64,000 bases of DNA from Candidatus Liptonbacteria bacterium (GTDB lineage Bacteria; Patescibacteriota; Minisyncoccia; UBA6257; JACOXY01), in the NCBI GenBank assembly GCA_016182095.1, contig JACOXY010000012.1, positions 25,864 to 89,863 of the forward strand. The letters run 5' to 3'. The position numbers and the translations under genes are program-made. The notes under the pieces were generated by a model, which was given only the letters and a program-made list of their open reading frames with translations, was not told the DNA's origin and did no database searches. Below, piece after piece: positions 7,931 through 62,445 of this stretch; position 1 is the stretch's first letter; each line of letters starts with the position of its first letter.

Positions 7931-7960
7931 TTGACAAAATGGTGCTTTTTGTGCTATAAT
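7931..7960 (+). promoter_or_regulatory. sigma70-like promoter (TTGACA-18-TATAAT) driving a long structured leader
   Basis: Consensus hexamers. About 175-nt leader with nested hairpins (gtagctt...aagctac; ccacc...ggtgg) before the strong SD at 8126. Confidence 0.5.
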
Positions 7961-8091
7961 ATACTTAGCAAGCTGTGAGAGGTTCCCCTCTAGCCAGCTT
8001 ATAGAGTAGCAAAAAACGCGCAAAAAGGACCCTGCGTAGCTTCCACCTTCGTTAAAACTTCGGTGGACAAGAAAGCTACGGAGGAACAAGG

Positions 8092-8125
8092 GTCGCCTAC
8101 GCTCTACAGAGCTATGGCGGACCAA
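8092..8125. repeat. 34-bp perfect direct repeat, copy 1 (left flank of high-GC cassette 1)
   Basis: gtcgcctacgctctacagagctatggcggaccaa; identical copy at 8600-8633. Confidence 0.8.
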
Positions 8126-8136
8126 GGGAGGAAAGC

Positions 8137-8523
8137 ATGCGAACGAAGGGGATGTTGATGTTGATCGCGGTTTTGACGGTGCTCCTCTGCCTTACGGCAG
8201 TGGAGACGGTATCGGCCGGCTCGCCGGGCTGGAGCAACAGGAGCGGGGGGTTCGGCATTTCCGGCGGCGTAAGCGGTAGGAGCGTGGCGCCGTACGATGT
8301 CTATCAGCGCGGCAACTACTGCGACAACCCCAACCGCTGCCTACGGTGGCGGAGGGCGGGGAGCTACGTCGGATGCGACGGCTGGTCCGGCTCGCAGTCA
8401 GAGAATGCATACTGGCTGGACTTCGACGTCTGGCGCCAGAGATCAAGCCGCAACAGTACCGGTGCGTTGGTCATGGGTGGCGGAAGAGGGCGCGGCGGCA
8501 GAGCGACCGGCTGGCGTAGGTAG
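8137..8523 (+). CDS. high-GC small secreted Gly/Arg-rich protein (likely foreign)
   Basis: Strong SD gggaggaaagc; signal peptide; GC3-rich codon usage that contrasts with its neighbours. Confidence 0.5.
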   Translation: MRTKGMLMLIAVLTVLLCLTAVETVSAGSPGWSNRSGGFGISGGVSGRSVAPYDVYQRGNYCDNPNRCLRWRRAGSYVGCDGWSGSQSENAYWLDFDVWRQRSSRNSTGALVMGGGRGRGGRATGWRR

Positions 8524-8529
8524 AACGGC

Positions 8530-8576
8530 ATCCAGCCGCAGTTTCCCGGAAACTGCGGCTGGATCCCAACTTTTTA
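8530..8576 (+). terminator. terminator (perfect 15-bp stem)
   Basis: atccagccgcagttt-cccgg-aaactgcggctggat followed by a T run. Confidence 0.6.
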
Positions 8577-8599
8577 TATTTCTAAGTGGCTCGTTCCAA

Positions 8600-8633
8600 G
8601 TCGCCTACGCTCTACAGAGCTATGGCGGACCAA
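8600..8633. repeat. 34-bp perfect direct repeat, copy 2 (right flank of cassette 1)
   Basis: Identical to 8092-8125. Confidence 0.8.
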
Positions 8634-8721
8634 AGGTAGTGGGTCATTTAGAAATGTAAATGTATAGAGAAAGTTGTCATGAAAACTTGCGCAAAAGGGC
8701 AATAGGTGGTATTAAACTTGT

Positions 8722-31878: not shown

Positions 31879-32595
31879 ATGAGCATAAATAATCGCACTT
31901 CTACTACCCGGCAGGCGGTGATACTCGCGGCTGGCAAGGGCACAAGAATGCTTCCCTTTACGCAAAGTGTTCCTAAGCCGCTTATGGAACTGAAGGGCAG
32001 GCCGCTTCTGGAATACACCATGCTCGCGTTGCCGAGAGAAGTAAGCGAAATAATTTTGGTTGTGGGATACATGGGAGACCAGATTAAGAATCGCTTCGGC
32101 CGTCGTTTTCAAAATTACAATATTTTTTACGCCGAACAGAAAGAGCCGAAGGGAACTTTTAACGCTCTCGTGGCCGCATCATCAATGCTTCGCGACAACT
32201 TCTTGCTTTTGATGGCCGACGATATCTATTATCGTGACGATATAGAGAATATGGCAAGATACGAAAACGCGATTCTCGTCAAAAAATTAACCGGCAACTC
32301 CGAAAAGTTCGGGCACTGTATAGAAAAAAGCGGCCTTTTACGCGATTTGCTTGAGAAACCAAAAGGCATCCCCAATCCACTGGCCTGTTGCGGCGCCTAT
32401 AAGTTATCAAGAGAAATTTTAAATGAACCGATAATTTACGGCCCAAACGGCGAAGAAGTGCTCTCTCCAATGATTGGTACTTTCGCTAAAAAAATGCCCA
32501 TACATGTAGTAGAGGCAAAATTCTGGCATCCAATCGCGACCCCCGAAGACCTAAAAACCGCAGAACAACATTCTAACATTCGCAATAATGTTTGA
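31879..32595 (+). CDS. sugar-phosphate nucleotidyltransferase
   Basis: AVILAAGKGTRMLP NTP-transferase motif. Confidence 0.7.
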   Translation: MSINNRTSTTRQAVILAAGKGTRMLPFTQSVPKPLMELKGRPLLEYTMLALPREVSEIILVVGYMGDQIKNRFGRRFQNYNIFYAEQKEPKGTFNALVAASSMLRDNFLLLMADDIYYRDDIENMARYENAILVKKLTGNSEKFGHCIEKSGLLRDLLEKPKGIPNPLACCGAYKLSREILNEPIIYGPNGEEVLSPMIGTFAKKMPIHVVEAKFWHPIATPEDLKTAEQHSNIRNNV

Positions 32596-42670: not shown

Positions 42671-42693
42671 CATTGAGCTTATTATGCAGTTTA

Positions 42694-42727
42694 AACATTC
42701 TAACATTCTTGAGAATGTTAGAATGTT
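42694..42727. promoter_or_regulatory. 34-bp palindrome (15-bp perfect arms, 4-bp spacer) downstream of the ArsR-like gene
   Basis: aacattctaacattc-ttga-gaatgttagaatgtt. Confidence 0.6.
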
Positions 42728-42738
42728 TATTGATGAAA

Positions 42739-43005
42739 TCAAAAAGTTTTGGCGAACTTAACCATCATTTTGCCAAAAGGTGACAATGAATGCTCAACTT
42801 CCCTGCCATGATATTTCTTATAAAGAAGGCCAGCGCCAACCAAACGTCTCGTATGCTCTGATGCTGTTTTTATGTTGCAATCAAGTTCTTTAGAAATTGC
42901 CTCTAGGGTCATGCCTTCGTTGCTGGAAATTAAAAATAAAATATCAAGCCGCCTGTGATTTGCCATACCCTTGAAATATCTCTCTAACTGTTTTGATGTT
43001 TTCAT
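42739..43005 (-). CDS. ArsR/SmtB-family transcriptional regulator (paralog of 1671..1973)
   Basis: HRRLDILFLI...HTRRLVGAGLL; shares a C-terminal VEHxLSPxGK motif with the first paralog. Confidence 0.65.
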   Translation of the reverse strand: MKTSKQLERYFKGMANHRRLDILFLISSNEGMTLEAISKELDCNIKTASEHTRRLVGAGLLYKKYHGREVEHSLSPFGKMMVKFAKTF

Positions 43006-43024
43006 AACCTAAGAACTGTATCAT

Positions 43025-43058
43025 AGTTTTCCAAAACATTCTAACATTCTCAAGAATG
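43025..43058. promoter_or_regulatory. 34-bp palindrome upstream of the ArsR-like gene (putative operator)
   Basis: aacattctaacattc-tcaa-gaatgttagaatgtt; same arms as 42694-42727 with the spacer inverted. Confidence 0.6.
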
Positions 43059-43186
43059 TTAGAATGTTTTGGAATGGGTAATGAGTGGATAAGAAACCTT
43101 TTGCATTAAACTATGTCAGTAAATGGTTAATACAAGAATGTCGTAATGTTGTGGGCAAGATTTTAAGGTAAAAATCGCTCCGATGT

Positions 43187-47475: not shown

Positions 47476-47612
47476 AAACCCGCAATGCTTCCTACTCCAA
47501 ATAGGCCCCGCGTAGTCTGCCACGATTCGCGGGCTTTTTTATATCTAAATAAAACCTGTAATGTTTTTTACTCCAAACCGGCCCCGCGTAATCAACGCCG
47601 ATTCGCGGGGAT
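47476..47612. repeat. tandem duplication (two ~77-bp units) of the mpg 3' coding end plus its terminator
   Basis: Both units carry ..tactccaaa..ggccccgcgta.tc..c..cgattcgcggg + T run. They encode VDYAGPVWSKKHYRF and ADYAGPIWSRKHCGF respectively. Confidence 0.65.
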
Positions 47613-48268
47613 TTTTGAATTTTAAACTTTGCCCGAAGTACATCCTGCGTAGTTCGACTGCGCTCACCATAAACTTTGCCGAAGGATTTCCTTTCTTCCA
47701 CCCACAGCTCGCTTTTTTTATCTGCCTTTTTTCCATTAAACCTTTTGTCAATTTTAAAAAATTTGGTAAGTTTCCCCGGGCCCGACATCCGAAGTCCCAA
47801 ATATTGAGGTTCCCTGCTTTTTGACTTCGGATGTCGCCAAGTTGAGCTTTGCTGGCCAATTTTAGGAGATCCGACCTCTGAAACACACCCATTGGGGAAG
47901 ACTGGGGGCGGGTGGTTTCGGGTTTCCGAGGTCGGATCTCGTGGGCGATCAGATATCAAGACGCCACGGATTAAAACCGCCGCCGGATAATCTTTGGGGC
48001 CCGTCACCACATTTAGCATCCAGTGCATGCCATAGGTTAAATAAACATACCACACTCCCGCCTCGCCAAACATCACCGCGTTCCGCGCCGTTTTCCCGCG
48101 ATGCGCGTGAGACGCCTTGTCCTTAAACCCGTCGTATGCTTCAACTTCAGTTATCATCGCCGCAATTTCCTTACCCTTTATCCTGCGCACCAAAAACTTG
48201 CCTAAAAGATTTCTGGCAACAACAACGGTGGACTTTTGAAAATATGGCTTTTTAAGAATTTTTTTCAT
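47492..48268 (-). CDS. mpg: DNA-3-methyladenine glycosylase (Mpg/AAG family) with an in-frame ~60-aa GC-rich insertion
   Basis: N-terminal ARNLLGKFLV...EVEAYDG...VWYVYLTYGMHWMLNVV and C-terminal GPGKL...PRIGVDYAGPVWS. The insert between them corresponds to the hairpin-rich DNA at about 47760-47945. Confidence 0.65.
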   Translation of the reverse strand: MKKILKKPYFQKSTVVVARNLLGKFLVRRIKGKEIAAMITEVEAYDGFKDKASHAHRGKTARNAVMFGEAGVWYVYLTYGMHWMLNVVTGPKDYPAAVLIRGVLISDRPRDPTSETRNHPPPVFPNGCVSEVGSPKIGQQSSTWRHPKSKSREPQYLGLRMSGPGKLTKFFKIDKRFNGKKADKKSELWVEERKSFGKVYGERSRTTQDVLRAKFKIQKSPRIGVDYAGPVWSKKHYRFYLDIKKPANRGRLRGAYLE

Positions 48269-51365: not shown

Positions 51366-52007
51366 ATGAATACAGCCGACAGAATTAAACTTAAAAAACG
51401 AGCGTTAAATATTGTAAGGAGACTAAAAAGTCTTTTCCCGCATGCCAAAATGACGCTAAAGTACGGCAATAATTGGGAACTTTTGGTCGCGGTTATTTTA
51501 TCGGCTCAATGCACCGATAAAAAAGTGAACGAGGTAACTGCGAAACTTTTCAGCAAATATAGGTCACTGAATGATTATGCAAAAGCCAACCCACAAGAAT
51601 TTGAGCGCGACATTTACTCAACCGGATTTTACCGCGTAAAGGCAAAAAACATACTGGCTGCGGCAAAAATCGTAAAAAATAAATTCGGCGGCAAATTACC
51701 TAGCACAATGGAAGAAATGCTAACGATTCCCGGAGTCGCGCGGAAAACCGCGAATGTCGTATTGGGTAATGCCTATGGTGTAGTTCAAGGAATTGCCGTT
51801 GATACGCACGTCCGACGCCTCACCCGCCTTTGGGGCTTAACGAAACATAGTGATCCTATTAAAATTGAAAGCGATTTAATGAAAATTATTTCTAAAAAAG
51901 ATTGGTTTAAATTTACTTATTTGGTTATTGATTATGGGAGAAAATACTGTACGGCGAGAGTGAAGGATCATGGCAATTGTCCACTCGCAAAGTTTGAGAC
52001 TAAATAA
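51366..52007 (+). CDS. nth: endonuclease III family DNA glycosylase (HhH-GPD)
   Basis: HhH LTIPGVARKTANVVL and catalytic region; only two C-terminal Cys (CTARVKDHGNC), so possibly no full 4Fe-4S loop. Confidence 0.7.
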   Translation: MNTADRIKLKKRALNIVRRLKSLFPHAKMTLKYGNNWELLVAVILSAQCTDKKVNEVTAKLFSKYRSLNDYAKANPQEFERDIYSTGFYRVKAKNILAAAKIVKNKFGGKLPSTMEEMLTIPGVARKTANVVLGNAYGVVQGIAVDTHVRRLTRLWGLTKHSDPIKIESDLMKIISKKDWFKFTYLVIDYGRKYCTARVKDHGNCPLAKFETK

Positions 52008-52051
52008 AACAAAACCCCAAGGCGTACTGGCTTTGGGGTTCACTGGGCTCA

Positions 52052-52324
52052 CTAATTACAAATTCCGCAATCTCTGTGCACTTCCAGACCGATAGCTTCA
52101 TAATCAATCGGAGCAAATCCTCGCAATTTACGGTGCCAATCATTCAAAACCACATATGTGGCAACCAGAAAGAGCAGTGGATTTACGATAAAGCTAACCC
52201 AAATAAAGGTGACGCAGAAAAGTATTTCTGAATTTACAACATCGCTCCAGAACACAGCCAAAAGGCCATAAGTTAGTAAGGAAAGAACAATGAAGCCCTC
52301 GAAGAACCGATCCCGATGTATCAT
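52052..52324 (-). CDS. small membrane protein
   Basis: Three hydrophobic helices; start trimmed to MIHRDRFF. Confidence 0.35.
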   Translation of the reverse strand: MIHRDRFFEGFIVLSLLTYGLLAVFWSDVVNSEILFCVTFIWVSFIVNPLLFLVATYVVLNDWHRKLRGFAPIDYEAIGLEVHRDCGICN

Positions 52325-52447
52325 TTTTCTTATTCCATTCTCTGGTTGCAAACTACGGTAAGTGTAGCACTTAGAAATTATTGCTGTCAATATAGAAAGG
52401 GCCCGAGGAAAATTCCCCGGGCCTCGAGTTCTGACGGCCTGCTGATT

Positions 52448-52768
52448 TCAGACAGCAGGCAGGTTCACGAGCTTCGCGCGGAGAGCGCGCAGACGTCTCC
52501 GGCCAAGCCAGAGAGCGTCCGAAACGCTCTTCAGCAGATCCCGCAGTCCGTCCGGAGTCTCGGGACACACTGCCCCAGCATCGTACCCGGCCTCCGCGGC
52601 CAGGCGATCGAAGAGCTCGCGCGCCTTGATGTTGCCAACCACCAAGGGATTGAACCGTGGATCCCGCTCGGCCTGCACCAGAAACCCGTACAGAGCCGCC
52701 GCCGGATCGCGCATCTGGCTCCCGATCTCCGTCTGGATGTCCAGACGCCTCTTCTCGTTATACTTCAT
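52448..52768 (-). CDS. high-GC hypothetical protein (cassette 3, likely foreign)
   Basis: Strong SD gaggaggaaagg before the ATG; GC3-rich codons; its own TTGACA-17-TATAAT promoter and a ~110-nt hairpin-containing leader. Confidence 0.5.
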   Translation of the reverse strand: MKYNEKRRLDIQTEIGSQMRDPAAALYGFLVQAERDPRFNPLVVGNIKARELFDRLAAEAGYDAGAVCPETPDGLRDLLKSVSDALWLGRRRLRALRAKLVNLPAV

Positions 52769-52875
52769 GCCTTTCCTCCTCGCCCGTCCTAAACCAGTTT
52801 TACTGGTTGGATTAGGGCTGTTTTTTGGCTAAGTAGCACCATGCTACCTAGCATCCCAACCAGCATCCTAATTGT

Positions 52876-52904
52876 CATTATATTATAAAATTTTCATTTT
52901 GTCA
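52876..52904 (-). promoter_or_regulatory. sigma70-like promoter (TTGACA-17-TATAAT) for the high-GC gene 52448..52768
   Basis: Reverse complement reads ttgaca-aaatgaaaattttataa-tataat. Confidence 0.5.
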
Positions 52905-52907
52905 AGC

Positions 52908-52935
52908 GCAAAAAAACCAGGCTATTTCCTGGTTT
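52908..52935 (-). terminator. rho-independent terminator after the higA-like gene
   Basis: Minus strand: aaaaccagg-aaatag-cctggttttttt. Confidence 0.55.
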
Positions 52936-53203
52936 TATCGTAGTCTTTTTGCAAATTAAGCCAAAATTCGGGACTCATATTGAAGAAGTGCCCAAGACAA
53001 AGAGAGGTTTCGGAATTAACGCTCGCGTCCCCAGCGATCAAGCCATTAAGATAGGCCTCGTTTAGCCCCGTACCTTTTGCCACCGCTTCTACATCCAGAT
53101 TATTCGGCTTCATAAATTCTTCCAATAATACCTCTCCTGGATGAACCTCCAGCTTTGCGAGCTTCTTCTTGTGCCTAATTTCCTGCCGAATCCTTGGCGT
53201 CAT
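52922..53203 (-). CDS. higA: HigA-family (Xre HTH) antitoxin-like protein, orphan
   Basis: HPGEVLLEEFMKP...GLNEAYLNGLIAG...SPEFWLNLQKDYD is the HigA/VapI signature; no HigB/RelE-like partner found. Confidence 0.65.
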   Translation of the reverse strand: MTPRIRQEIRHKKKLAKLEVHPGEVLLEEFMKPNNLDVEAVAKGTGLNEAYLNGLIAGDASVNSETSLCLGHFFNMSPEFWLNLQKDYDKTRK

Positions 53204-53234
53204 TATTGCCCCCATGCGCAAACGATCTGGAGAG

Positions 53235-53264
53235 ATTATAACAAAGGGACGCCTTCTTTGTCAA
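53235..53264 (-). promoter_or_regulatory. sigma70-like promoter (TTGACA-18-TATAAT) for the higA-like gene, abutting repeat element A
   Basis: Reverse complement reads ttgaca-aagaaggcgtccctttgt-tataat. Confidence 0.5.
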
Positions 53265-53458
53265 CCAGGTAGTAGAAATGCGAGTGAAGTTTTTGAAAAA
53301 TATGGTAACACCATCGATCAAATCCACAGAGATATTATCGGTCAGTATTTATACCCGATCGATAACAATCGATAACCTCGTCAATTGAACGATCGTTTGT
53401 TATACGAGGTCTTGGAGTTGGTAGAAAGAAATGCTCGTATTTTCACTACCTGGTCAAG
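53263..53458. mobile_element. ~196-bp MITE-like element A with terminal inverted repeats
   Basis: The ends ccaggtagtagaaatgcgag / ctcgtattttcactacctgg are inverted copies. The core (~130 bp) is 95%+ identical to the reverse complement of 62259-62390. Confidence 0.6.
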
Positions 53459-53478
53459 CACACACCCAACTGCAAGCA

Positions 53479-54387
53479 CTAAACTTTCAAATACTTTCTC
53501 ATCGCCATATAGCTGGAAACTACTCCCAGTACTACTCCAAAGGCAATTTGATACAAAAGAAGCAGGAGGAGATTAGTTATAAAATATCCCCGTAAGTCAA
53601 TTTCGGGTATAAAAACGTTTATATAAGGCGACCCAAAGAAAATCGCCGGAGCGGCTATCACCAAACTTAAAACCGCGGCCAAAGCTCCATACAAAATCCC
53701 CGTGACCACATAGGGACCTCTTATAAAAGAGTTGGACGCGCCAACAAGCCGCATAATACCTATTTCTTCGCGGTCGGAAAAAATGGCAAGGCGAACAGTA
53801 TTAAAAATAACAAGGCCGGCTATTAGAGAAAGGAACAGTGTAAGGAGCGTTCCGGCTTTTTCCACGGTATCAATTACCTGCGCCAGCCGCTCTATTACGG
53901 TTTGGTTTTGGAAAAAGCTTACCTTCTCAACTATCGGCTCCAGAGTTTTGGTATTTAAATACTCGGATATAGTGGCATATTGGCTCGGATCGTGCGCTTT
54001 TATATTTAAGGCGGCGGAAAGCGGGTTTTCGCCCAATTCGGCAATGGCCTGGGTAATCGTTTCGTCTTCGGCATGATTCCCCTTAAATATTTCCAACGCC
54101 TTATCGCGCGATATGTATTCAACGCTTTTTACCTCCGACAATCCCTCTAAAGAGCGTTTTATGCGGAGAATTTCGTCCTCCGGAGCCGATGTCTTAAAGT
54201 AAACACTAATGTCAATCTTATCTTTCAAAACGGTAAGCGCGCTTGTTGTGAGATAACTAAAAACATTAACGCCTAAAAATACGATAAGTGCGATTATCAT
54301 AACCGCAACAGTCGCAACCGAAAGCAAACTGTTCCTCTTAAACTGCTGAAGGCCGTGCTTGATGATCCTGAAAATTATAGTAATCAT
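53479..54387 (-). CDS. ftsX: cell division ABC transporter permease FtsX
   Basis: Four-TM FtsX-like topology with a large loop; paired with ftsE. Confidence 0.75.
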   Translation of the reverse strand: MITIIFRIIKHGLQQFKRNSLLSVATVAVMIIALIVFLGVNVFSYLTTSALTVLKDKIDISVYFKTSAPEDEILRIKRSLEGLSEVKSVEYISRDKALEIFKGNHAEDETITQAIAELGENPLSAALNIKAHDPSQYATISEYLNTKTLEPIVEKVSFFQNQTVIERLAQVIDTVEKAGTLLTLFLSLIAGLVIFNTVRLAIFSDREEIGIMRLVGASNSFIRGPYVVTGILYGALAAVLSLVIAAPAIFFGSPYINVFIPEIDLRGYFITNLLLLLLYQIAFGVVLGVVSSYMAMRKYLKV

Positions 54388-62258: not shown

Positions 62259-62445
62259 ACCAGGTAGTGAAAATGCGAGCATTTCTTTCTACCAACTCCA
62301 AGACCTCGTATAACAAACGATCGTTCAATTGACGAGGTTGACGAGGTTATTGATTGTTATTGATCGGGTATAAATACTGAACGAGAAGCAGAAATCGAAC
62401 CCGCGTCTCAACCTTGCCGGGTAGTAGAAGTGCGATTACATTTTT
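62259..62445. mobile_element. MITE-like element B, inverted copy of element A, abutting tRNA-Gly
   Basis: 62259-62390 is about 95% identical to the reverse complement of 53330-53458. A second 20-bp motif copy (ccgggtagtagaagtgcga) lies at 62417. A tRNA-3'-half-like remnant (gcgggttcgatttctgc) lies between them. Confidence 0.55.

What the first reader, a model, noticed from the sequence alone, without database searches (positions are those of the whole stretch)
52390..52910. High-GC mini-cassette 3 immediately downstream of an orphan HigA-like gene
ORF 52448..52768 is about 60% GC with GC3-biased codons and a perfect SD (gaggaggaaagg). It has its own TTGACA-17-TATAAT promoter and a ~110-nt leader with hairpins (ctaggtagca/tgctacttag; aaccagt/actggtt), and is separated from the higA-like gene by a terminator. 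Compositionally it is foreign. Its position next to an antitoxin-like regulator raises the possibility of a non-canonical toxin or an acquired effector.
Basis: partly seen in the sequence, partly recalled or inferred. Interest (0 to 1): 0.6.

Follow-up and report, generated by a model that had tools for sequence, protein, structure and literature searches.

The report
GC-rich small-protein gene beside orphan HigA
This is a real, separately transcribed gene for a small basic helical protein of unknown function, known only from a few groundwater Liptonbacteria; it is conserved beside an orphan antitoxin-like regulator and is not a fresh foreign insert, so it is a modest curiosity.

Summary
On the minus strand there is a perfect TTGACA-17-TATAAT promoter, a ~100-nt leader with two hairpins, a GGAGG Shine-Dalgarno site, a 106-codon ORF (52768..52448; GC 0.64, GC3 0.76 against a host mean of 0.45) and its own terminator. 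A terminator separates it from an orphan HigA-family gene.

The ORF is coding. Two homologs exist (41-42% identity), and only the sense frame is open in all three.

It is not a recent strain-specific import. A sister species with saturated synonymous sites has the same layout: ftsE-ftsX-higA-like-ORF...nth. That copy also has a 12/12 promoter, an 11-bp leader hairpin with six compensatory pairs, its own terminator and the same synonymous GC excess.

The family has three members among about 15 billion proteins. Pfam, NCBIfam, PHROGs, PADLOC and Rfam give no hit above threshold, and Foldseek against PDB and BFVD gives no significant fold match. The protein is basic, all-helical and has no histidine, so it is not a HigB/RelE, HEPN or Doc toxin.

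Most likely it is a strongly expressed, non-enzymatic binding protein. A link to the HigA-like regulator is possible but unproven, and a toxin role is neither shown nor excluded. The maintained GC richness is unexplained. Interest is low to moderate.

The parts
52877..52905 (-). Consensus sigma-70-type promoter of the small ORF: TTGACA (52905-52900), 17-nt spacer, TATAAT (52882-52877).
   Evidence: 12/12. It is one of only three 12/12 sites in 64 kb. The ortholog in L008 also has a 12/12 promoter with a 17-nt spacer.
52769..52870 (-). Predicted 5' UTR of about 100 nt. The transcription start is inferred from the -10 position, not measured.
   Evidence: MFE -34.7 kcal/mol, z = -3.0. No Rfam match.
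52828..52852 (-). Leader hairpin 1: 11-bp stem with a UGG triloop (GCUAGGUAGCA-UGG-UGCUACUUAGC). It is conserved in the ortholog's leader.
   Evidence: In the alignment with L008:2444-2468, all 11 pairs form in both sequences and 6 have changes on both sides. Slid controls give 22-45% pairing and 0 double changes.
52782..52818 (-). Leader hairpin 2, a bulged stem containing AACCAGU/ACUGGUU. It is specific to the window; the L008 leader is only about 45 nt long.
52775..52779 (-). Shine-Dalgarno GGAGG, 6 nt upstream of the ATG. It is unpaired in the predicted leader fold.
52448..52768 (-). Coding sequence of a 106-aa basic (pI 9.6), histidine-free, all-helical protein. GenBank annotates it as hypothetical protein HYT12_02910 of a Candidatus Liptonbacteria MAG. 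GC 0.64, GC3 0.76.
   Evidence: Homologs P0002 and P0006. Only the sense frame is open in all three, with pN below pS. AF2 model pLDDT 84.7, helices 3-19, 22-35, 47-59, 64-67 and 72-102.
52437..52460 (-). 8-bp hairpin that spans the stop codon (GCCUGCUG...CAGCAGGC).
52400..52423 (-). Intrinsic-terminator-like hairpin of the small ORF: 10-bp stem with 8 GC pairs and a weak U tract.
   Evidence: z = -4.7 for the 3' end region.
52910..52936 (-). Terminator of the higA-like gene: 9-bp stem AAAACCAGG/CCUGGUUUU plus a U run. The higA stop codon lies in the loop. It ends 7 nt before the -35 hexamer of the small ORF.
   Evidence: z = -3.6; inverted repeat I3.
52922..53203 (-). Orphan HigA-family HTH gene of 93 aa, counting from the ATG that has a GGGGG Shine-Dalgarno.
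   Evidence: TIGR02607 at 3e-19. PHROG 1381 'plasmid antitoxin with HTH domain'. Gene call of 93 aa. No HigB-sized ORF lies upstream, while three close homologs all have a HigB upstream.
53235..53264 (-). Promoter of the higA-like gene: TTGACA-18-TATAAT, 12/12, with an extended -10 TG. The palindrome ACAAAG-N9-CTTTGT lies between the hexamers.
51998..53479 (.). Variable interval between the ftsX stop and the nth end. It holds a 120-nt repeat copy, the higA-like gene, ORF106 and a 90-aa membrane-protein ORF (52324..52052). Nucleotide similarity to the sister genome stops exactly at both edges.
   Evidence: blastn. (ftsE 96%, ftsX 87%, nth 77%, higA 43%, ORF 41% aa identity). More distant relatives have different content in the interval.

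Best explanation
The region is an insulated, monocistronic expression unit for a genuine small protein. On the minus strand the order is: consensus promoter, 5' UTR with a conserved 11-bp stem-loop, strong Shine-Dalgarno, 106-codon ORF, terminator. A terminator on the upstream side insulates it from the higA-like gene.

Shown:
- The ORF is protein-coding.
- It belongs to a family of three known members, all from groundwater metagenomes. The two with genomic context lie in Liptonbacteria-type loci.
- It was already present, next to an orphan HigA-like HTH gene in the ftsX-nth interval, in the common ancestor of two species that have since saturated their synonymous sites.
- Three features are conserved between the two species although no nucleotide similarity remains: the 12/12 promoter, the leader hairpin and the synonymous GC enrichment. 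The GC richness is therefore a maintained trait of the gene and not the scar of a fresh transfer.

Inferred:
- The signals (maximal promoter, stabilising 5' hairpin, strong Shine-Dalgarno) point to high expression.
- The protein is basic, histidine-free and all-helical, with no conserved catalytic-looking motif. It most likely acts by binding a partner, either a nucleic acid or another protein, and not as an enzyme.
- The conserved neighbourhood makes the HigA-like HTH protein the prime candidate for its regulator or partner.

The function itself remains untested.
For: - Anatomy.
- Coding status: homologs P0002 (E = 2e-10) and P0006 (E = 7e-5) cover the full length. The sense frame is the only frame open in all three, with pN 0.39-0.45 against pS 0.57-0.75.
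- Real junctions: six assemblies with 0 mismatches.
- Synteny and conserved architecture: L008 and L007 show ftsE-ftsX-higA-like-ORF116-...-nth-CysMet-TIM-Mpg. The L008 unit has a terminator, a 12/12 promoter, a hairpin, an ORF at GC 0.60 and a terminator. The L008 neighbour is HigA-like, TIGR02607 at 4e-8.
- Age of the arrangement: flanking genes have pS 0.68-0.87, and identity at shared four-fold sites is 0.26-0.44.
- Maintained GC: GC3 is 0.76, 0.65 and 0.64 against an expected 0.47-0.49, reached by 0 of 5000 simulations in each of the three homologs. The higA-like gene is host-like, z = 1.2.
- Leader hairpin covariation: 6 of 11 pairs.
- Protein properties: pI 9.6-10.8, and 0, 1 and 0 histidines in the three members. 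The AF2 model is all-helical with pLDDT 84.7.
- No enzyme, toxin or defence family match.
Against: - Only three family members exist, and only two have genomic context, so the conserved pairing rests on n = 2.
- The third homolog sits on a 505-nt contig with no upstream gene visible.
- The two higA-like genes are no closer to each other (43%) than to more than 120 HigAs from other phyla, and the L008 copy is below the family cut-off. Independent arrival of the neighbours cannot be excluded.
- TIM and Mpg are only 52-54% identical between the two genomes. The 41-43% identity of this pair is therefore not a clear sign of special evolution.
- No shared operator links HigA to the ORF promoter.
- There are no expression data.
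- 'Binding protein' is an inference from negative evidence. No significant structural neighbour was found.
Confidence: 0.6

Rival explanations
1. Non-canonical toxin or effector module. The orphan HigA-like protein lost HigB and now represses or neutralises the downstream small helical protein. When de-repressed from its consensus promoter, that protein arrests growth or acts on a host or competitor.
For: - The higA-like to ORF adjacency is conserved in both genomes with context.
- Both genes are among the most diverged in the locus, at 41-43% identity.
- A maximal promoter usually needs a repressor (own knowledge).
- The higA-like gene has an autoregulation-type palindrome in its own 12/12 promoter.
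- L008 has a perfect 22-bp palindrome 5 nt upstream of the ORF's -35 hexamer.
Against: - The two genes are not co-transcribed: a terminator and a separate promoter lie between them in both species.
- The gene order is the reverse of HigBA.
- There is no RelE/HigB, HEPN, Doc or other toxin signature, no histidine, and an all-helical prediction.
- The window's ORF promoter lacks the higA-promoter palindrome.
- There is no PADLOC hit.
Confidence: 0.15
2. A moron-like cassette imported, possibly repeatedly, from an unsampled GC-rich gene pool into a recombination hot spot downstream of ftsX. On this reading the GC richness is incomplete amelioration.
For: - It is a self-contained promoter-ORF-terminator unit with deviant GC.
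- The ftsX-nth interval is variable among relatives, and nucleotide similarity stops at the gene ends.
- A second GC-rich cassette at 8137..8523 is flanked by 37-nt direct repeats and also has a 12/12 promoter.
- Codon choice (CTG, CGC/CGG, GAG) resembles that of GC-rich bacteria (the comparison is from own knowledge).
Against: - No homolog was found in any GC-rich genome, phage or plasmid among about 15 billion proteins, IMG/VR, INPHARED or PLSDB.
- There are no flanking repeats and no integrase or phage genes nearby.
- The promoter and leader have native AT-rich composition.
- The same locus, promoter type and leader hairpin occur in a species with saturated synonymous divergence.
- The neighbouring higA-like genes are not GC-rich.
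Confidence: 0.15
3. An RNA-binding regulator with a logic like phage lambda N. The basic protein would bind the conserved hairpin in its own leader, to autoregulate or to modify transcription through the flanking terminators.
For: - The conserved 11-bp UGG-triloop hairpin has six compensatory pairs.
- The protein is basic, with conserved N-terminal MKK-E-RR and C-terminal Arg-rich helices.
- Terminators lie immediately upstream and downstream, with same-strand genes beyond them.
- A Cro/CI-type HTH gene is adjacent.
- The lambda comparison is from own knowledge.
Against: - There is no sequence or fold similarity to N proteins or any RNA-binding family.
- The protein is predicted to be well folded, unlike N (own knowledge for N).
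- The downstream genes have their own promoters and differ between the two species.
- The hairpin in the third homolog differs and is not significant, z = 0.
- A 5' hairpin is more simply explained as an mRNA stabiliser.
Confidence: 0.06
4. The GC-rich island is a structured non-coding or dual-function RNA, and the ORF is incidental.
For: - GC-rich islands in AT-rich genomes often mark structured RNAs (own knowledge).
- The whole transcript folds with z = -6.3.
- The window's coding sequence has z = -3.1 against dinucleotide shuffles and -3.6 against synonymous-codon shuffles.
Against: - There is no Rfam match.
- The two homologs show no excess structure, z = +0.2 and +0.4.
- The protein sequence is conserved with 30 invariant residues, and only the sense frame stays open.
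- The codon-position GC pattern, with GC2 lowest, is typical of coding sequence.
- A Shine-Dalgarno and ATG are present in all three.
- The z of -6.3 is inflated because the shuffle mixes an AT-rich leader with a GC-rich body and the terminator hairpins.
Confidence: 0.03

Closest known systems
HigBA type II toxin-antitoxin modules (HigB: RelE-superfamily mRNA interferase, PF05015; HigA: TIGR02607)
   Same: The neighbour is a bona fide HigA-family HTH protein, at 68.6 bits against a cut-off of 47.7. The small ORF has about the size of a toxin (106 aa), lies directly beside it, and the pairing recurs in a second species.
   Different: - In the three closest HigA homologs checked, HigB is upstream and contiguous. 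Here the small ORF is downstream, behind a terminator, with its own promoter.
- It has no HigB/RelE match.
- It is predicted all-alpha, not alpha/beta.
Phage 'morons': autonomous promoter-ORF-terminator units with deviant GC inserted between phage genes (own knowledge, Hendrix and colleagues)
   Same: It is an autonomous, insulated transcription unit whose base composition differs sharply from its surroundings.
   Different: - It is not in a prophage. Its neighbours are ftsEX, nth, a Cys/Met-metabolism PLP enzyme and TIM.
- There are no PHROG hits and no relatives in phage collections.
- It is conserved at the same chromosomal locus across species, not present or absent between close relatives.
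Anti-CRISPR/Aca-type loci: a small ORFan driven by a very strong promoter and controlled by an adjacent HTH repressor (own knowledge)
   Same: A small protein with almost no homologs, a maximal promoter, and an adjacent small HTH regulator whose own promoter contains a palindrome.
   Different: - The HTH gene is upstream and separately transcribed, not downstream in the same operon.
- There is no mobile-element context.
- No shared operator was found at the ORF promoter.
- There is no evidence of any anti-defence role.
Small helical-hairpin proteins: ribosomal protein uL29 and DUF3958 (PF13125)
   Same: Weak profile similarity over the C-terminal helix-loop-helix: archaeal uL29 at E = 1e-3 to 1e-2, and DUF3958 at 18.1 bits in one homolog.
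   Different: - Both are below family thresholds.
- DUF3958 is seen in only one of the three members.
- The window protein has no Pfam hit below E = 0.17.
- Foldseek does not recover these folds.
- The extra, conserved N-terminal 45 residues have no counterpart.
- I treat this as generic amphipathic-helix resemblance.

Membership tests
HigB/RelE-type toxin of a HigBA module | Sequence match to HigB/RelE-superfamily models (e.g. PF05015) and an alpha/beta RelE fold | tested here: not met
   No Pfam or NCBIfam hit. The AF2 model is all-helical with pLDDT 84.7. No Foldseek match below E = 1.
HigB/RelE-type toxin of a HigBA module | Encoded immediately upstream of higA and co-transcribed with it | tested here: not met
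   The ORF is downstream of higA. It is separated by a 9-bp stem with a U7 terminator and has its own 12/12 promoter. The layout is the same in L008. The canonical order is seen in three close HigA homologs.
HigB/RelE-type toxin of a HigBA module | Growth inhibition on expression, neutralised by the cognate HigA | not testable with these tools
   This needs expression of ORF106 with and without the higA-like gene in a surrogate host.
Type II toxin-antitoxin module (general) | Two adjacent genes in one autoregulated operon | tested here: not met
   There are two transcription units, each with its own promoter and terminator, in both species.
Type II toxin-antitoxin module (general) | The gene pair is conserved as a pair across genomes | tested here: inconclusive
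   The pair is present in both genomes that have context. That is only n = 2. The third homolog's contig is too short to tell.
HEPN or Fic/Doc all-helical toxins | Catalytic Rx4-6H (HEPN) or HxFx(D/N)(A/G)NKR (Fic/Doc) motif | tested here: not met
   The window protein and P0006 contain no histidine, and P0002 has one non-conserved histidine. There are no Pfam or PADLOC hits.
Phage moron | Autonomous promoter-ORF-terminator unit with composition unlike its surroundings | tested here: met
Phage moron | Located within a phage or prophage genome | tested here: not met
   The flanks are ftsE/ftsX and nth/Cys-Met PLP enzyme/TIM. There are no PHROG hits for the ORF. No relatives were found in INPHARED, IMG/VR or PLSDB.
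Structured non-coding RNA (GC-rich intergenic island) | Match to a described RNA family | tested here: not met
   Rfam gives tRNAs only at gathering threshold. Nothing below E = 0.26 in 52000-53300.
Structured non-coding RNA (GC-rich intergenic island) | Conserved secondary structure across homologs and no conserved reading frame | tested here: not met
   Coding-sequence folding z is -3.1 in the window but +0.2 and +0.4 in the homologs. The sense frame is open in all three, and 30 residues are invariant.
HigA family antitoxin (the neighbouring gene) | Score above the TIGR02607 cut-off | tested here: met
   68.6 bits against 47.7. The L008 counterpart reaches only 33 bits.
HigA family antitoxin (the neighbouring gene) | Cognate HigB gene adjacent | tested here: not met
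No HigB-like ORF lies between ftsX and higA.
uL29 / DUF3958 helical-hairpin proteins | Score above the family threshold in the members | tested here: not met
   DUF3958 scores 18.1 bits against 26.3, in one of three members. uL29 appears only as a marginal profile hit, E = 1e-3, and is absent from the Foldseek results.

The most novel reading that the evidence does not exclude
The higA-like gene and the ORF106-family gene form a previously undescribed two-gene module specific to these candidate-phyla-radiation (CPR) bacteria. A HigA-type repressor that lost HigB would be re-paired with an unrelated, all-helical basic partner acting as toxin, effector or RNA-binding regulator. That partner would be transcribed on its own from a maximal promoter and carry a conserved leader hairpin. 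Its synonymous GC richness would be kept by selection, for example to make the mRNA stable or refractory to A/U-specific ribonucleases, and would not be left over from transfer.
Probability: 0.12. Interest if true: 0.6.

Novelty: new member of a known kind. Interest (0 to 1): 0.3.

Why it matters
As it stands, this documents one more lineage-restricted small protein of the poorly understood CPR bacteria. GenBank already annotates it as a hypothetical protein.

Two points go beyond the ordinary:
- Synonymous GC enrichment is maintained in all three family members inside AT-rich genomes. Recent transfer does not explain this easily. It would be a clean case for studying selection on synonymous sites or mRNA stability in reduced genomes.
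- A maximal promoter and a covarying leader hairpin are kept across species, next to an orphan antitoxin-type regulator.

If the pair proved to be functionally coupled, it would show how orphan antitoxins are re-used in episymbiotic bacteria. None of this addresses a long-standing open question.

Tried and rejected
1. Family searches of the 106-aa protein against Pfam, NCBIfam, PHROGs, PADLOC and PDB sequences gave nothing meaningful.
3. The HMMER hits P0003-P0005 are large repeat proteins. The match covers only residues 48-93, the least conserved part of the family, and profile-profile probability is 1.9%. I rejected them as spurious.
4. Searches for more family members in GTDB species representatives, JGI metagenomes, IMG/VR, INPHARED and PLSDB found none. 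There are no paralogs in the window or in related loci.
5. The structured-RNA reading is not supported. The z of -6.3 for the whole transcript is largely a heterogeneity artefact plus the leader and terminator hairpins.
6. An antisense 158-aa ORF (52316..52792, plus strand) is a shadow of the GC-rich gene. No antisense frame is open in all three homologs.
7. I looked for a shared HigA operator. ACAAA-N(3-11)-TTTGT is enriched in the window, 6 observed against 1.6 expected, and lies inside the higA and cassette-1 promoters. However, the spacing differs (9 against 7 nt). The half-sites are largely the -35 TTGACAAA and the extended -10 TG. One further match checked (7080) lies inside a coding sequence. 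The ORF106 promoter has no such palindrome. I do not use this as evidence.
8. I looked for flanking direct repeats or insertion scars around the cassette and found none.
9. I first read the interval as a 'hypervariable island with a co-diverging pair'. I weakened this because TIM and Mpg are also only 52-54% identical between the two genomes.
10. Using FtsX to fetch more relatives of the locus gave three more distant genomes with different content downstream of ftsX, and two contigs too short to help.
11. A literature search for CPR, toxin-antitoxin and HigA found nothing on this arrangement.
Full report
**Observation.** The window has 43.3% GC. It comes from a Candidatus Liptonbacteria MAG; the 106-aa product is GenBank hypothetical protein HYT12_02910.

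All of the following lie on the minus strand:
- A 12/12 promoter, TTGACA-17-TATAAT, at 52905..52877.
Leader z = -3.0.
- GGAGG 6 nt before the ATG.
- ORF 52768..52448.
- A hairpin across the stop codon and a terminator at 52423..52400.
- Upstream, the stop codon of the higA-like gene sits in the loop of a 9-bp stem with a U7 terminator (52936-52913), which ends 7 nt before the -35 hexamer.

ORF composition:
- GC is 0.639 and GC1/2/3 is 0.71/0.45/0.757. Long host ORFs average 0.507/0.375/0.454.
- Only 0.8% of 321-nt windows reach GC 0.6.
- Among all ORFs of at least 100 aa, only this one and 8137..8523 are GC3 outliers.
- With host codon usage the same protein would have GC 0.52 and GC3 0.49. 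The observed GC3 is 6.1 sd higher, reached by 0 of 5000 simulations.

Six independent Logan assemblies carry the same sequence and junctions with no mismatch, so this is not a chimera.

**Is it a gene?** An exhaustive HMMER scan of 1.84 billion cluster representatives found the protein itself and two full-length small homologs. These are P0002 (116 aa, E = 2e-10) and P0006 (112 aa, E = 7e-5). A profile search added nothing.

- The three proteins share 30 invariant residues: MK..E.RR at the N-terminus, DP..A..GFL.Q, RF, N..ARE.F.RLA, and an Arg/Leu-rich C-terminal helix.
- Only the annotated frame is open in all three, and pN (0.39-0.45) is below pS (0.57-0.75).
- The 158-aa antisense ORF is a shadow of the GC-rich gene.
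- No Rfam family matches.
- The window's coding sequence folds more stably than shuffles (z = -3.1 dinucleotide, -3.6 synonymous-codon), but the two homologs do not (z about 0). A conserved structured RNA does not explain the GC island.

**Comparative context.** P0002 is encoded at the same locus in a related genome, GCA_964616565.1, and in a Logan contig from the same run series as the window's assemblies (SRR121133xx-1211343x). The gene order there is ftsE-ftsX-higA-like (90 aa)-ORF116-...-nth-Cys/Met PLP enzyme-...-TIM-...-Mpg.

The transcription unit is built the same way in that genome: terminator after higA, 12/12 TTGACA-17-TATAAT promoter, leader hairpin, Shine-Dalgarno, GC-rich ORF (0.60 against about 0.43), terminator.

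The 11-bp leader hairpin has the same GCA-UGG-UGC tip in both species. All 11 pairs form in both, and 6 have changes on both sides. Slid controls give 22-45% pairing and no double changes.

Amino-acid identities between the two genomes:

| Gene | Identity |
|---|---|
| ftsE | 96% |
| ftsX | 87% |
| Cys/Met PLP enzyme | 79% |
| nth | 77% |
| Mpg | 54% |
| TIM | 52% |
| higA-like | 43% |
| ORF106 / ORF116 | 41% |

- Synonymous sites of the flanking genes are saturated, with pS 0.68-0.87.
- Nucleotide similarity stops exactly at the ftsX stop (53480) and resumes at the nth end (51997).
- More distant relatives carry other genes downstream of ftsX.
- All three family members show the same synonymous GC excess, at 0 of 5000 simulations each. 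The adjacent higA-like gene does not.

**What this means for 'foreign'.** The composition is undeniably atypical, but the gene is not a recent strain-specific import. The locus, the promoter quality, the leader hairpin and the GC enrichment have all persisted through a divergence that randomised neutral sites. No relative exists in any GC-rich organism, phage or plasmid. No insertion scar is present.

Two readings remain: synonymous GC content maintained by selection in this gene, or repeated import from an unsampled pool into the same site. I favour the first, but I cannot name the selective cause. I record this as unexplained.

**The HigA neighbour.** The 93-aa gene at 53203..52922 is a clear HigA-family member (TIGR02607 at 3e-19). 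Its three closest homologs that I inspected each have a canonical HigB directly upstream. Here and in L008 there is none. 'Orphan' is therefore correct.

The recurrence of a higA-like gene in front of the ORF in both species argues for a historical and perhaps functional link. Several points weaken that argument:
- The sample is n = 2.
- The L008 copy is degenerate, at 33 bits.
- The two HigAs are no closer to each other than to more than 120 HigAs of other phyla.
- I found no shared operator. The ACAAA..TTTGT palindromes in the higA and cassette-1 promoters are largely explained by the -35 hexamer and the extended -10 sequence.

**The protein.**
- It is basic (pI 9.6-10.8 in the family) and hydrophilic. 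The window protein has no histidine and a single, non-conserved cysteine.
- The AF2 model has pLDDT 84.7 and is all-helical: helices 3-19, 22-35, 47-59, 64-67 and 72-102.
- Foldseek against PDB and BFVD finds nothing below E = 1.
- The marginal similarities are archaeal uL29 (E = 1e-3) and DUF3958 (18 bits in one member). I read both as generic helical-hairpin resemblance.
- It is therefore not a HigB/RelE, HEPN, Doc or other recognisable toxin. It has no signal peptide or membrane segment.

**Most likely mechanism.** Shown: this is an insulated, monocistronic, conserved unit with maximal expression signals that encodes a real small protein. Inferred:
- High expression.
- A non-enzymatic binding role, with a nucleic acid or a protein as partner.
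- Control by, or partnership with, the adjacent HigA-like HTH protein, as the leading but unproven candidate relationship.

Rival readings and my estimates:
- Non-canonical toxin or effector under HigA control: about 0.15.
- Moron-like import from a GC-rich pool: about 0.15.
- Regulator that binds the leader hairpin, with lambda-N-like logic: about 0.06.
- Structured or dual-function RNA: about 0.03.

**Comparison with known systems.** The unit resembles a phage moron in being autonomous and having deviant GC, but it is not in a phage. It resembles acr-aca loci in combining an ORFan, a strong promoter and an HTH gene, but gene order and context differ. It is adjacent to a HigA but fails every tested membership criterion for a HigBA toxin.

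**Verdict.** This is a real and carefully observed feature. The 'acquired' label is not supported, and the toxin idea is neither supported nor excluded. The maintained GC enrichment and the conserved promoter and hairpin are mildly surprising. Otherwise this is a lineage-specific hypothetical small-protein gene. Interest 0.3; novelty: new member of a known kind.

Noticed in passing
window 7931-8640 (+): A second GC-rich 'mini-cassette'. It has a 12/12 promoter TTGACA-18-TATAAT at 7931, a structured leader of about 170 nt, and ORF 8137..8523. The ORF encodes 128 aa with a signal peptide and 4 Cys, is rich in Gly/Arg/Ser/Trp, and has GC 0.65 and GC3 0.81. A hairpin terminator follows. The unit is flanked by 37-nt direct repeats at 8092-8128 and 8600-8636 (97% identical). 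No family or Rfam hit. Together with ORF106 it is the only GC3 outlier in the window. These two ORFs plus the higA-like gene own the only three perfect promoters.
   Followed up: partly
window 53335-53454 and 62259-62387: A repeat of about 120 nt in inverted orientation, 97% identical, with sharp ends. One copy lies between the ftsX stop and the higA-like promoter. The other lies next to tRNA-Gly and upstream of a peroxiredoxin-like gene, and carries a 9-nt internal duplication. The repeat is absent from the corresponding spacer of the sister genome. Logan contigs break near it. Its nature is unknown: small mobile element, or duplicated regulatory region.
   Followed up: partly
window 1608, 1970, 24808, 25388, 32566, 42693, 43034: A dispersed family of 36-nt near-perfect palindromes (AAACATTCTAACATTCTTGAGAATGTTAGAATGTTT) with seven copies, two of which flank a segment of about 300 nt at 42693-43069. 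They could be REP- or MITE-like elements, or a common operator or terminator.
   Followed up: no
window 47476-47625: A tandem duplication of 74 nt (76% identity) at the 3' end of the 3-methyladenine glycosylase (Mpg) gene. Each copy ends in a terminator-like GC hairpin. The sister genome matches this region with one strong alignment and a second, weaker, overlapping one.
   Followed up: no
window 31890-31913 and 62415-62438: A 24-nt perfect inverted match (TAATCGCACTTCTACTACCCGGCA). One copy is at the 5' end of a nucleotidyltransferase-like ORF. The other lies between the 120-nt repeat and tRNA-Gly, in a stretch that looks like a tRNA fragment.
   Followed up: no
L008 2377-2398: In the sister genome a perfect 22-bp palindrome, TGCACAACCCCGGGGTTGTGCA, sits 5 nt upstream of the -35 hexamer of the ORF106 ortholog. 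This is in addition to the higA terminator. It is a candidate operator with no counterpart in the window.
   Followed up: partly
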